A DNA stretch of 64,000 nt from an uncultured Chlamydiae bacterium. GTDB lineage: Bacteria; Chlamydiota; Chlamydiia; Chlamydiales; JAJFMB01. This document shows positions 24,041-27,138 of the stretch, piece by piece (the stretch's first letter is position 1; every line of letters begins with the position of its first letter). Both the position numbers and the translations under genes were made by a program. Below the pieces are notes generated by a model. The model was not told the DNA's origin, searched no databases, and saw only the letters and a program-made list of their open reading frames with translations. Location: assembly GCA_963696295.1 (NCBI GenBank), contig CAVOJR010000001.1, positions 1,344,001 through 1,408,000 on the forward strand, written 5' to 3'.

Positions 24041-25237
24041 TTAATTAGAGGAAACGGGTACCAGACTATCGATCAGCCCTTGCTTGTCTATTTTGGCAAT
24101 CCAGGCTTCGCAATCATTTCTGCCATAAGCCACCCAGACATAGTTTTCATCCTGTATAAAGCCCGCAGGATATATCACACGCCTGGGTTCGCCCCATTCC
24201 ACTCTTCTGTGCTTACCTTCGTAAAACCCTTTGCTGACAATAGGCTGCGGACTGATTTTTGTTATTTGAAAGGGGGGCTCGGAAGAGAACGTGTAGGCGC
24301 CCATGAAATAGTGCAGCGTCTTTTTCCCTTCAGAATGCATGGATGCCGCATCCACCATGGAGTGAAAAAAAGCCAGATATTCTCCACCGGAGATTATGGC
24401 AGGACTCCCCCCGCGCAACTCGCCAAAGTCCCAATTTATGTTGGGAAAGGTACGATAAACAAATTCACACTCCCCTGTTTTCAAATTGGGCTTTAGAATT
24501 CTATGGGGGGAGATACTATAGACAAAATAGAGGTTATCCTGATAAATGAACGGCATCCAATTTTTCTCATATTTGTTCTTATCCATACCTTTGAAATATA
24601 AAAGCAGTGGTTCAGAGAAGGAAAAATTGACACCATCAAATAACACCTTGCGAATATAGAGGCGCGGGACCTTTTTGCTGAAGATATTAATTTTTGTGCA
24701 TTGATTATATACGATATAAAGATCCTCACCAACCCCTATTAAACGGATGTCATTGGCGGTATAGTCCCCTTTTTTTAAATTTTCCAAATGAAAAACATAA
24801 GGCTCCCCAATGGGGTCAAACTGCTCATCCAGCCAAATGAAACCGTATCGATTTACAGGCTTTTCCTTTGGATGTTCTAAACGATAACTGAGCAACAGAC
24901 CGCCATTCCAGGGAATAATGGAGGGATTAAAAGCAAAATCGTGGGGGGCAATAACAATTCTTTTTGTTTCCAAAACAAAACTTTGGGCCATGTCATCCAG
25001 ATTGGTCTCTGACAGATTTATTTGAGCCCAAAGGGGAAATGAAAAAAATATATACCCAAACAACTTGAAGAGTTGGGAATTGGGCAAGGAGGTTCCTTCA
25101 AATTTTTGTCCGCAACGAGTGACCATTGCCGATAGGCAAGGCACAAGTGAGGACGAAAAATTGAAGGTAAAACCGACGAAGCCCAAAACCAACTCTTCAA
25201 GTTGTTTGGGTATAAGAGACACTATCCAATTTGTCAT
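24041..25237 (-). CDS. Exported glycosidase-like beta-propeller protein (GH130-like) with in-frame palindromic insertion in its signal peptide
   Basis: FNPSII, DIRL, EKNWMPF, LRGGSP, VIYPAG, YGRND motifs. ATG 25237 overlaps the upstream TGA. Confidence 0.7.
   Translation of the reverse strand: MTNWIVSLIPKQLEELVLGFVGFTFNFSSSLVPCLSAMVTRCGQKFEGTSLPNSQLFKLFGYIFFSFPLWAQINLSETNLDDMAQSFVLETKRIVIAPHDFAFNPSIIPWNGGLLLSYRLEHPKEKPVNRYGFIWLDEQFDPIGEPYVFHLENLKKGDYTANDIRLIGVGEDLYIVYNQCTKINIFSKKVPRLYIRKVLFDGVNFSFSEPLLLYFKGMDKNKYEKNWMPFIYQDNLYFVYSISPHRILKPNLKTGECEFVYRTFPNINWDFGELRGGSPAIISGGEYLAFFHSMVDAASMHSEGKKTLHYFMGAYTFSSEPPFQITKISPQPIVSKGFYEGKHRRVEWGEPRRVIYPAGFIQDENYVWVAYGRNDCEAWIAKIDKQGLIDSLVPVSSN
25051..25214. 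mobile_element. 164-bp palindromic element (TA-flanked, 26-bp perfect TIR), in-frame insertion
   Basis: tatacccaaacaacttgaagagttgg (25051-25076) is the exact reverse complement of 25189-25214. Confidence 0.85.
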
Positions 25238-26112
25238 GAATTGCTGGTGTTCCAAAAGTGAACAGCCGCCGTTTCCGGCCGGTAAAACCTTATGGGATCT
25301 TTAGTTTCATATGCTGTAATGGGATAAAAGAAAGTGGGTGGAAATATTATCCCGTCGACCCTCAGGAGGTTGATATTATTGGTTATCTCTTGAGTCAATA
25401 AATCGGGGCCCGTTCTTTCCACAACTCCTTGATGCATGTTTTTTGATGAATTCCCCGGCAGATCTGCGATCAATTTTGCCAGTAAGGGATGATTGGGCGA
25501 AGAGGCAATGATCGCGTTTCCGATTCTAAGAGGATGATGTTCTAAAGGTTCGAGGCCGGCAAAAAAAGAATATTCGAGAAAAGCGAATTCAAAGAATTCA
25601 GGATTTAGACATTCAAAATCTGTATCCACATAAAGGCCGCCGAAGCGATAGAGGATTTCATACCGCATGATATCCGCTTTTTCACAATAGAATGAGGCCT
25701 CTTCAAATAATTTTGAATTAATTAAATTTAGTTCCGGGAGATCTTCTTCGGTCCATAATCTATATTCCCACCCTTCCCAATCCTGCCATGATTTTACATA
25801 GGCTAAAAATTTGTCCGGTATAGATCCACCCAGCCAAATTTGGTGGATGATGCGGGGTATTTTGTAGTCATCCCGGTTTTGAAAGGATTTGTATCGGTCC
25901 CGATTGTACAGGTCTTTTAGAACTCTTATCCGGGTTCTTTGGTCACCTTGAAAAAATGCTAAGAAGTTTTTCCCGTAATATTTGTTATAGGCAGAATAAC
26001 TTTTATTATTTCTGTGCAATGAAACAATAAAATCGGGATAATTTTTTCTGAAATCATTCACTGCGCCACAATGAAAACAGCTGGCAATAAGCAAAAGATA
26101 ATAAATCATCAT
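25234..26112 (-). CDS. Glycosyltransferase family 32 (DXD, OCH1-like) with signal peptide
   Basis: IPRIIHQIWLG, KADIMRYEILYRFGGLYVDTD. Confidence 0.88.
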   Translation of the reverse strand: MMIYYLLLIASCFHCGAVNDFRKNYPDFIVSLHRNNKSYSAYNKYYGKNFLAFFQGDQRTRIRVLKDLYNRDRYKSFQNRDDYKIPRIIHQIWLGGSIPDKFLAYVKSWQDWEGWEYRLWTEEDLPELNLINSKLFEEASFYCEKADIMRYEILYRFGGLYVDTDFECLNPEFFEFAFLEYSFFAGLEPLEHHPLRIGNAIIASSPNHPLLAKLIADLPGNSSKNMHQGVVERTGPDLLTQEITNNINLLRVDGIIFPPTFFYPITAYETKDPIRFYRPETAAVHFWNTSNS

Positions 26113-26154
26113 ATTTTTAAAATATATACGCAGATCAAAATTTATCTCAAGCTT

Positions 26155-27138
26155 TTAATCAACAGAGTCTAAAAAGTAGCGGAAAATCGACAGGTAGGGC
26201 TTAATAAGGTATTTTTTAATAAGCCGCCCCCATACCCCTTGCCGGTCTTTAATTAACAGAGCATCCCATTTTTTCTCTATTTGTAAAGCCTCAAGACACC
26301 GCTGCGAGGCCAAATCGCCCCCGAAGAAAAGAGGCCAAAGGGCCAATCTGTCCCGCAGCAGCCTGGGGCATGGCTCTCTTTTTTCAGGATTATACCCAAA
26401 CAACCTCAAAATTTGGGATTCCGGCTTTGCCAAAGCCCCGGGATTCAACGATCGTAAACAGGTCCATATTGTTAACATTGACCTGTTTACGATCGATTGA
26501 ATCGCGGGAGCTTTGGCTTTGCGGAAAACCAAATTTTGAGGTTGTTTGGGTATAAAATTTATTGTTTTGAGATCGACCGGCAAAACGGGCCCGGTTTCCC
26601 TCCTTCTCCCCTGATGGATATAGGCATATTGATCGTAAATGATTCCGCTGCCCTGGCGGTCGATATTCGTGAAATAATGGGGCGATCGCTGCAGGGCGTT
26701 TTCAGCGGCTGAGACTCTCCATTGGTTATAACGGCTGTCGTGCAGCAGCCAAACGACGCGAAATCCAAGCGAGGCATAATCGCAATTGCGCTGCAGCACC
26801 TCGCTTGAGGTGATCGGGGAGCACTGCACCTCAAAAATAATTTTCTCTGAGATCCAAACGGCATCCGCAATCCGTTTGATCGACGGAAAAGGGCACTCCA
26901 GCCGGCAATCCTCGCCGATCATTCGCTGCAAACGCCACTGAACCTGTAAATGTTTTAAACTTTTTTGATGCAAGGAACATTTTTGATTGGGGCGCACATG
27001 ATAAAAATGGGCCTGCCGAATCTCCCCGCCGCGAACGTGCAGGGGTTCCTTGCATTCCAGACAAATATAATCTTGTCTTTTGACCGCTTCAGCCGCCTGG
27101 ACTACCCGGCCTTGATCATCTAGAGCAAAAAGTTGCAT
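26155..27138 (-). CDS. coiA: Competence protein CoiA-like nuclease with in-frame palindromic insertion
   Basis: YICLECKE..RGGEIRQAHFYH, RIADAVW, FEVQCSPI, YASLGFRVVWL. Confidence 0.8.
   Translation of the reverse strand: MQLFALDDQGRVVQAAEAVKRQDYICLECKEPLHVRGGEIRQAHFYHVRPNQKCSLHQKSLKHLQVQWRLQRMIGEDCRLECPFPSIKRIADAVWISEKIIFEVQCSPITSSEVLQRNCDYASLGFRVVWLLHDSRYNQWRVSAAENALQRSPHYFTNIDRQGSGIIYDQYAYIHQGRRRETGPVLPVDLKTINFIPKQPQNLVFRKAKAPAIQSIVNRSMLTIWTCLRSLNPGALAKPESQILRLFGYNPEKREPCPRLLRDRLALWPLFFGGDLASQRCLEALQIEKKWDALLIKDRQGVWGRLIKKYLIKPYLSIFRYFLDSVD
26391..26554. mobile_element. 164-bp palindromic element (TA-flanked, 26-27-bp perfect TIR), in-frame insertion
   Basis: ttatacccaaacaacctcaaaatttgg (26390-26416) is the reverse complement of 26529-26555; inner IR cgatcgtaaacaggtc/gacctgtttacgatcg. 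Confidence 0.88.

What the first reader, a model, noticed from the sequence alone, without database searches (positions are those of the whole stretch)
25051..26554. Family of 164-bp palindromic elements that insert in frame as 54-residue peptides
Seen: two elements (25051-25214 and 26391-26554) of identical length. Both start TATACCCAAACAAC and end GTTGTTTGGGTATA, both have 26-27-bp perfect terminal IRs, both fit a TA duplication giving a net 162 bp, and both are read without stops in the same frame (IPKQ...LFGY, 54 aa) inside different genes. Their interiors differ strongly, yet each is its own near-complete hairpin, and the differing TIR positions (ttgaagagt vs ctcaaaatt) change on both arms together. 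Established analogies: Rickettsia palindromic elements in ORFs and TA-targeting IS630-type MITEs. Inference: a mobile RNA/DNA hairpin family conserved in length, ends and fold rather than sequence, which adds new peptide segments to proteins. I do not know of a description in Chlamydiae, but could not check.
Basis: partly seen in the sequence, partly recalled or inferred. Interest (0 to 1): 0.82.

Follow-up and report, generated by a model that had tools for sequence, protein, structure and literature searches.

The report
IS630-ended hairpins lengthening chlamydial proteins
Two 164-base gene-less hairpin repeats sit inside neighbouring genes without breaking their reading frames; they belong to two unrelated-looking branches of a widespread repeat family whose ends match an IS630 transposon end, so they are likely mini-transposons whose frame-keeping copies survive and are predicted to add 54 amino acids, much as known repeats do in Rickettsia and enterobacteria.

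Summary
Both elements are 164 bp with 26-bp perfect terminal repeats (TIRs), fold as strong hairpins and read in frame in two genes; close CoiA orthologs lack the insert. They head two sequence subfamilies (A, B) among about 55 loci in this genome; full-length copies are 94-98% identical within a subfamily, while A and B interiors are no more alike than shuffles. Exact ends recur in 102 loci of 37 assemblies. The TIR matches the right end of an IS630 clade (20-23 of 26 positions in 38 of 86 distinct ends) and resembles ERIC's ends. A copy inside another repeat shows a TA duplication. Best reading: a non-autonomous IS630-type MITE; in-frame position is a survival filter (81 of 102 copies elsewhere look intergenic; frame-breaking lengths also multiply). 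Less ordinary: lengths cluster at 163-165 and 173-176 across unrelated interiors, arms co-vary, and 8 of 13 genic copies here sit in the first 16 codons. No matching transposase was found in this genome; nothing is shown at RNA or protein level. The ERIC-IS630 link and in-frame fusions are published, and this scan already reported the family from other loci of this genome.

The parts
25051..25214 (.). Subfamily A element, 164 bp including both TA copies (160-bp core)
   Evidence: five other full-length copies in the genome at 94.5-97.6% identity
25051..25076 (+). Left 26-bp TIR of element A, IS630 right-end type
   Evidence: best IS630 end matches 23 of 26
25189..25214 (-). Right 26-bp TIR of element A
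   Evidence: 100% complementary to the left arm
25052..25213 (-). 54 inserted codons (IPKQ...LFGY) after codon 8, inside the predicted signal peptide of the glycosidase-like gene
   Evidence: no Pfam or NCBIfam match; translation not shown experimentally
24041..25237 (-). Host gene 1: GH130/DUF377-like glycosidase, 398 aa with the insert; its ATG overlaps the stop of the upstream gene (ATGA)
   Evidence: homologs' N-termini are a median 48 residues shorter (119 compared); signal peptide judged by eye
25234..26112 (-). DXD glycosyltransferase gene between the two host genes; carries no element
26391..26554 (.). Subfamily B element, 164 bp including both TA copies; near-perfect hairpin
   Evidence: one other full-length copy in the genome at 96.3%
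26391..26416 (+). Left 26-bp TIR of element B
   Evidence: best IS630 end matches 22 of 26
26529..26554 (-). Right 26-bp TIR of element B
26449..26495 (.). Inner stem-loop of element B (22-nt arms, 91% complementary); strongly co-varying across genomes
26392..26553 (-). 54 inserted codons in the variable linker behind the CoiA nuclease-like domain
26155..27138 (-). Host gene 2: CoiA-like protein, 327 aa; its four closest orthologs are 273-275 aa

Best explanation
The two elements are gene-less, hairpin-forming repeats flanked by TA, whose 26-bp ends match the right end of an IS630 clade, and they are likely non-autonomous mini-transposons (MITEs) moved in trans by such a transposase, with the in-frame copies likely being the survivors of purifying selection rather than the product of aimed insertion. 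Steps: (1) shown: insertion adds length minus 2 at a TA; (2) shown: both arms resemble the IS630 right end, and the match stops at base 26; (3) inferred: an IS630 DDE transposase, not found in this genome with my queries, binds both arms and cuts and pastes the element; (4) inferred: the size classes near 164 and 175 bp, about one helical turn apart, reflect a geometric limit on pairing two close ends; (5) inferred: arm-to-arm copying in the palindrome keeps the two arms matched while the interiors drift or are replaced; (6) shown at DNA level, inferred at protein level: copies landing in frame in signal peptides, N-termini or variable loops are kept and would lengthen the protein.
For: TSD: the copy at C1:487835 interrupts another palindromic repeat; 10 of the 12 alignments listed for its empty site show a single TA at the junction, at separate uninterrupted copies. 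IS630 ends: query L146 is an IS630 transposase (NF033545, 212 bits, cut-off 100). At one fixed position behind the transposase C-terminus, 38 of 86 distinct ends match a window TIR at 20-23 of 26. Among the 42 that start with TATA, identity is 72% over positions 5-26 and 23% over 27-40. With best-site choice, 46 of 82 ends reach 21 of 26 against any family arm, versus 1.9% of 1225 control windows; best 24 of 26. All 176 arms of 88 distinct elements score closer to the right-end than the left-end profile. ERIC tie: a Vibrio hit of the end pattern aligns over 127 bp to an E. coli repeat found in all 5426 genomes, a fetched copy of which carries the ERIC2 primer sequence printed in PMC4335510. 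PMC6267812 section 13 already links the ERIC-type MITEPlu5 to 'CCC-type' IS630. Filter, not aim: about 78% of context-weighted TA targets are coding, yet about two thirds of loci are intergenic; 12 of 13 genic copies keep the frame; frame-breaking copies exist in other genomes. Empty orthologs: CoiA, CarB, where the insert falls between E. coli residues 336 and 339, and a paralog of the C1:1687592 gene. Arm co-variation: 34 of 65 pairs with double changes, 146 cells against 17 single-sided, 0 of 500 shuffles.
Against: No IS630 transposase was found in this 97%-complete genome (Pfam DDE_3; tblastn with four IS630 ORFs; protein search), although copies are only 2-5% diverged. No IS630 with exactly the element's ends was found; positions 10, 11 and 14 differ almost always. 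48 of the 86 ends score under 20 of 26 at the fixed position, most with no recognisable IR there. Only 9 of 43 element-bearing genomes had an L146-like transposase at E <= 1e-60, versus 27 of 356 others (hand count; at most 5 candidates scored per genome; kin not independent). None was found in three Vibrionaceae and one Rickettsiales-titled genome with elements, and only a fragment in a Legionellales-titled one. G163 has seven elements, but its abundant IS630 matches at only 18 of 26. Interiors do not align to IS630 subterminal DNA better than shuffles, apart from a few marginal cases, so an origin by simple internal deletion is not shown. A transposase needs no full-length hairpin, so the fold needs a second cause. 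ERIC at 127 bp does not fit a simple helical series with 164 and 175.
Confidence: 0.75

Rival explanations
1. The single-stranded hairpin (RNA or ssDNA) is the mobile unit, moved by a reverse transcriptase, an HUH enzyme or host repair; the IS630-like ends are a relic.
For: Whole-length folding with z = -12 and -20. Co-variation far inside the TIRs. An unpaired motif near base 33 (CAAG facing CGCAG) recurs in A, B, the 175-bp type and ERIC (read by eye). No IS630 found in this genome. A degenerate A copy lies about 50 bp from one IS605 element.
Against: The TA duplication and a 26-bp match ending at the TIR boundary fit a DDE transposase. Double Watson-Crick swaps outnumber G-U-type single changes 146 to 17, which fits DNA-level arm copying better than RNA selection (inference). 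The second IS605 copy has no element beside it, and 4 of 5 element-rich genomes lack Y1_Tnp. Reverse transcriptases were not surveyed.
Confidence: 0.12
2. The elements are an adaptive protein-tinkering system: selected to stay stop-free, drawn to signal-peptide regions, and their peptides change export or activity.
For: 8 of 13 genic copies lie in the first 16 codons, against 5.7-5.8% of genic TA sites (binomial p about 1e-7, post hoc, starts set by my own gene calls). A homolog of host gene 1 carries an independent insert ending RLFGY in the same signal-peptide region (P0123, 1 of 119). Four more N-terminal in-frame cases occur in other genomes. Subfamily A keeps the YPNN frame open on both strands (12 and 10 of 13; shuffles 16% and 31%).
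Against: Three different frames are used. The 175-bp type has no more open frames than shuffles (0.85 vs 1.02). Copies decay by deletion even inside genes (144, 138, 120, 111, 78 bp net). No inserted site is shared with close orthologs (1 of 120 CoiA proteins, the query itself). Tolerance in a cleaved or floppy region explains the bias without benefit. The open-frame counts are on related sequences and overstate the evidence.
Confidence: 0.07
3. The insert is not translated: the hairpin is cut or skipped in the mRNA, or N-terminal cases restart at a TTG/GTG in the element's end, so the element acts on mRNA fate rather than on protein length.
For: Long perfect stems; RNase III and RNase E effects are reported for Correia and ERIC elements (passages of PMC10969869). 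The one frame-breaking N-terminal copy (C1:1963615) ends in GAGG followed six bases later by an in-frame GTG.
Against: Frame conservation in 12 of 13 genic copies, including internal CarB and HemD insertions and deletion variants that stay multiples of three, would not be expected if the insert were removed from the RNA. An RPE insert is translated in Rickettsia Gmk (PMC2229807).
Confidence: 0.06

Closest known systems
ERIC / IRU / RU-1 (ISfinder MITEEc1; Photorhabdus MITEPlu5; Hulton 1991 and Wilson and Sharp 2006 seen only as cited; PMC6267812 section 13 read; PMC2759123 passages)
   Same: TA at both ends and TA duplication; ends begin TATAC and carry TT(G/C)AA at positions 15-19; long hairpin; published similarity to 'CCC-type' IS630; in-frame genic fusions reported. 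The fetched ERIC ends score above background on the IS630 profiles, mostly p 0.002-0.02; one end of L145 does not.
   Different: 127 bp versus about 164 or 175; ERIC's two ends differ from each other and match the IS630 clade at only 16-17 of 26 (13 for one end of L145), whereas here both arms are perfect 26-bp copies of the right-end type; interiors are not alignable; host range here is mainly Chlamydiota.
Rickettsia palindromic elements (RPE; Ogata et al., seen only through PMC2229807 parts 1-2 and passages of PMC10969869)
   Same: About 150-bp hairpin repeats inserted in frame in unrelated conserved genes of an intracellular bacterium, several families per genome (one search shows five more here).
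   Different: No NCBIfam or Pfam match for the peptides. RPE target duplication is listed as unknown in PMC2229807, while here TA duplication and an IS630 end match are shown. The signal-peptide bias was not seen in the RPE passages I read.
RUP of Streptococcus pneumoniae with IS630-Spn1 (PMC2229807, PMC3049150 passages)
   Same: TA-targeting MITE assigned to an IS630 by TIR similarity, the same kind of evidence as here.
   Different: 107 bp, stops in all six frames, and a resident cognate IS630; here frames are often open and no cognate transposase was found in the genome.
IS630 family insertion sequences (NF033545), L146/L203-like clade
   Same: TA target; right end matches the element TIR at up to 24 of 26.
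   Different: The elements encode no transposase and carry two right-end-like arms instead of a left and a right end.

Membership tests
MITE (non-autonomous TIR element) | Short, no transposase gene | tested here: met
   164 bp; no family match of the peptides
MITE (non-autonomous TIR element) | Terminal inverted repeats | tested here: met
   26-bp perfect arms
MITE (non-autonomous TIR element) | Target-site duplication shown by empty sites | tested here: met
   TA, from the copy inside another repeat family; one site only at DNA level
MITE (non-autonomous TIR element) | Multiple dispersed copies | tested here: met
   about 55 loci in this genome; 102 loci in 37 assemblies
IS630-family MITE | TA target | tested here: met
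IS630-family MITE | TIR shared with an autonomous IS630 | tested here: met
   20-23 of 26 in 38 of 86 ends at a fixed position; three positions differ systematically
IS630-family MITE | Cognate transposase present in the same genome | tested here: not met
   not found with these queries in a 97%-complete assembly
IS630-family MITE | Mobilisation in trans by the transposase | not testable with these tools
   needs a transposition assay
ERIC / MITEEc1 | 127-bp length and ERIC interior | tested here: not met
   164 bp; interiors no closer to the ERIC-containing L135 than shuffles
ERIC / MITEEc1 | TATAC-type ends with TA duplication | tested here: met
Rickettsia palindromic elements | In-frame insertion in unrelated protein genes | tested here: met
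Rickettsia palindromic elements | Sequence homology to RPE peptides | tested here: not met
   no NCBIfam hit at E <= 1 for 4 element peptides; RPE DNA was not compared directly
Rickettsia palindromic elements | Insert translated in a functional protein | not testable with these tools
   no RNA holder listed; structure model uninformative
REP / RAYT or IS200-IS605 derivative | Linked HUH (Y1) transposase and no target duplication | tested here: not met
   two ordinary IS605 copies, only one near a degenerate element; Y1_Tnp in 1 of 5 element-rich genomes; TA is duplicated

The most novel reading that the evidence does not exclude
A cross-phylum class of fold-back mini-transposons is defined only by two IS630 right ends held at a quantised distance (about 164 or 175 bp) around an interchangeable, self-correcting hairpin; some branches (A) are selected to stay stop-free on both strands so that they can colonise coding DNA, above all signal peptides, and ERIC and the other 160-176 bp palindromic families of intracellular bacteria are further cases of the same design with other IS630 clades.
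Probability: 0.3. Interest if true: 0.7.

Novelty: new variant of a known kind. Interest (0 to 1): 0.45.

Why it matters
How ERIC- and RPE-like repeats move has rested on end similarity alone (PMC2229807, PMC6267812). Here a specific IS630 clade matches the ends at 20-24 of 26 bases, which names transposases for a direct assay. The family also separates what seems constrained (ends, length class, pairing) from what is free (interior sequence), so each can be tested. It offers a recurrent route by which environmental chlamydiae may gain 26-54 residue inserts in CarB, HemD, CoiA, an NRPS thioesterase and several signal peptides, and it will mislead start-codon and signal-peptide annotation. The value is tempered: in-frame MITE fusions and the ERIC-IS630 link are in print, and the scan has reported this family from this genome several times.

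Tried and rejected
Rfam: only weak hairpin-type hits below gathering scores. Viral contigs: 0 matches to the paired-end pattern. Plasmid and phage collections: no match to element A. Sequencing runs: no RNA holder listed; four soil runs with 5-7% of the words gave only scattered short contigs and no joint across either element, so polymorphism and expression stay untested. IS605 TnpA as mobiliser: rejected. Origin of the interior from the transposase C-terminus or IS left end: a 9-base likeness in A caught my eye, but alignments did not beat shuffles for A or the 175-bp type; three marginal cases among 34 cluster-arm tests. Strand preference of folding as a sign of RNA function: mixed, and my motif-based orientation failed for several sequences. 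AlphaFold of the CoiA protein: mean pLDDT 50.8, residues 184-281 under 50, uninformative. Promoter and terminator scan: 8 vs 4.5 and 4 vs 2.7 expected, none inside the elements. The count 'arms closer to IRR 88 of 176' was a script error, corrected to 176 of 176. Literature: searches listed no paper describing this family in Chlamydiota; 'chlamyd' occurs 0 times in the main text of PMC10969869, PMC11602168 and PMC3184786. The library lacks most subscription papers; ISfinder and the supplements of PMC11602168 and PMC6267812 (Text S2) were not read and may hold these elements.
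Full report
Observation. Both elements are real and as described: 164 bp including a TA at each end, 26-bp perfect terminal repeats, strong hairpins (z = -12.3 and -19.9), each inside a stop-free minus-strand ORF. Element A lies after codon 8 of a GH130/DUF377-like glycosidase gene. 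Its ATG at 25237 overlaps the upstream stop, and the public gene call has the same 398-residue length. By eye the element splits a signal peptide; N-termini of 119 homologs are a median 48 residues shorter. Element B lies in a coiA-like gene; the four closest orthologs are 273-275 aa against 327, with a gap of that size in a variable linker.

The family in this genome. Blastn with the two elements gives 55 loci, a few of them short and possibly chance. They fall into two sequence subfamilies. Eight are full-length (six A, two B), 94.5-97.6% identical to the window copies; the rest are deleted, truncated or tandem. A and B interiors align no better than shuffles. By my own gene calls and inspection, 13 copies have coding sequence on both sides. 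Five are internal: NRPS thioesterase, CoiA, CarB, HemD and an unknown protein. Eight are in the first 16 codons: host gene 1, DUF6492, MFS, Na/Pi cotransporter, NfeD, SodC and two unknown proteins. Twelve of the 13 keep the frame; the exception ends in an in-frame GTG. Four more overlap a gene's end and one is uncertain. About two thirds are intergenic although about 78% of context-weighted TA sites are coding. The CarB insert falls between E. coli residues 336 and 339. One A copy interrupts another palindromic repeat; 10 of the 12 alignments listed for its empty site show a single TA at the junction, which gives TA duplication and net length minus 2.

Distribution. A 19-base end occurs in 44 of 401 genomes of the phylum, this one included, with none for the reversed control. 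The paired 14-base ends at 146-176 bp give 102 loci in 37 assemblies. Record titles are mostly chlamydial, but also Enterovibrio, Grimontia, Vibrio, Legionellales, Rickettsiales, Burkholderiales, Acidobacteriota and Verrucomicrobia; MAG titles may be wrong or the contigs misbinned. Interiors form 16 clusters, several related to B. By an ORF heuristic 81 of 102 are intergenic; 11 look genic and in frame and 10 genic and frame-breaking or stop-adding.

Length. In 44 end-bearing genomes, intact-ended elements number 2 at 116-145 bp, 57 at 146-176 and 0 at 177-207, so the upper limit is not an artefact of my pattern there. Of 40 genome-by-cluster units, 21 are 163-165 bp and 11 are 173-176 bp; 20 have a frame-keeping length; 163-, 174- and 175-bp versions have multiplied too. 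Length is therefore held, but not to a multiple of three. The two modes differ by about one helical turn. That short transposons are sensitive to end phasing is recalled knowledge, and its use here is inference; ERIC at 127 bp does not fit the series.

Mobiliser. No IS630 was found in this genome, and its two IS605 copies are unrelated. In element-bearing genomes, however, IS630 right ends resembled the TIR. I collected the clade with L146 as query (IS630): 80 metagenome loci and genome loci. At one fixed position behind the transposase, with no choice of best site, 38 of 86 distinct ends match a window TIR at 20-23 of 26; 48 score lower, most with no recognisable IR there. Identity drops from 72% inside to 23% beyond base 26, and positions 10, 11 and 14 differ almost always. 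All 176 element arms are nearer the right-end than the left-end profile. The exact cognate was not found, co-occurrence is weak (9 of 43 versus 27 of 356, hand count), and interiors do not derive detectably from IS DNA.

Fold. In 18 B-like elements chosen by me from different assemblies, 34 of 65 pairs show double changes, 95% of cells pair, and 0 of 500 shuffles or any slid register comes close; in 14 A elements 23 of 62 pairs do. Relatedness inflates such counts. Double Watson-Crick swaps (146) far exceed single-sided changes (17), which I read as DNA-level arm copying more than RNA selection; this is inference. Conserved bulges near base 33 (by eye) are not explained by copying alone.

Coding bias. 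Eight of 13 genic copies in the first 16 codons compares with 5.7-5.8% of genic TA sites (p about 1e-7, post hoc). One homolog of host gene 1 has its own insert ending RLFGY in the same region. Subfamily A keeps one frame open on both strands more often than shuffles, B-like elements keep about one frame, and the 175-bp type shows no excess. Tolerance in cleaved or floppy regions suffices; selection on A for being stop-free is possible.

Relation to known systems. The end pattern itself retrieved a Vibrio ERIC, confirmed through E. coli copies and printed primers and the RU-1 sequence in PMC2759123 Table 1a (passage). PMC6267812 (passages and section 13) already ties the ERIC-type MITEPlu5 to CCC-type IS630. 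PMC2229807 (parts 1-2 of 3) and PMC10969869 (passages) describe in-frame RPE and ERIC fusions and RUP with IS630-Spn1. PMC3184786, PMC11602168, PMC3049150, PMC4335510 and PMC4853749 were seen as passages only. The elements work like RPEs and carry ERIC-like IS630 ends, but fail membership of both by length, interior and peptide. The searches named under Tried and rejected listed no description in Chlamydiota.

Earlier scan notes. I reached the IS630 reading, before seeing notes that report the same family and reading from the SodC, NRPS, CarB and signal-peptide copies of this genome. They agree but are not independent support.

Verdict. A real, widespread IS630-type MITE family with RPE-like behaviour: a new variant of a known kind. 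The distinctive points of this finding are two unrelated interiors at identical length, the two size classes and the double right-end design. Mobility, translation and any benefit remain untested. Interest 0.45.

Noticed in passing
window 21866-22000: A 135-bp palindromic element with CTAG ends, a deleted member of another repeat family with 166-167 bp copies at C1:125189 and C1:1449284; it reaches the last bases of the methyltransferase ORF at 21997-22698.
   Followed up: partly
G000 C1, genome-wide: At least five more families of long palindromic repeats (about 150-176 bp) with other ends; one has a B-like interior behind different termini, suggesting ends and interiors are exchangeable. Some IS630 ends seen begin TAGT, a possible partner for the CTAG-ended ones.
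   Followed up: no
L171:900-1450 (G318): An IS630-like end, a 164-bp element and a second palindromic element with a B-like interior but different TATAG ends lie within 500 bp of an IS630 fragment.
   Followed up: no
L001, L002, L003, L006 (G013): A second palindromic family starting TATACCA is nested in or abuts the elements at TA sites.
   Followed up: no
G000 C1:2629574-2629849, C1:2845891-2845970, C1:2884269-2884640: Copies with tandem repeats of one end, restarting at an internal TA-like site about 45 bp or 117 bp in; possibly self-insertion or slippage.
   Followed up: no
window 27264-28951: The sigma-factor-like gene behind coiA is split over several ORFs, suggesting frameshifts or assembly errors; rpoD identity is my reading of the translation.
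   Followed up: no
window 19775-21759: Two tandem paralogous glycosyltransferase genes within a cluster of sugar-modifying genes.
   Followed up: no
L041 and L042 (C1:3089749-3091386, C1:781182-782818): Two near-identical IS605 elements with TnpA and a divergent TnpB-like ORF; a lysine/alanine-rich histone-like repeat protein gene lies next to L041.
   Followed up: partly
L135:301-458: A Vibrio ERIC extended by a short inverted copy of its own end, giving it two TIRs of the type studied here: a possible intermediate in forming symmetric elements.
   Followed up: partly
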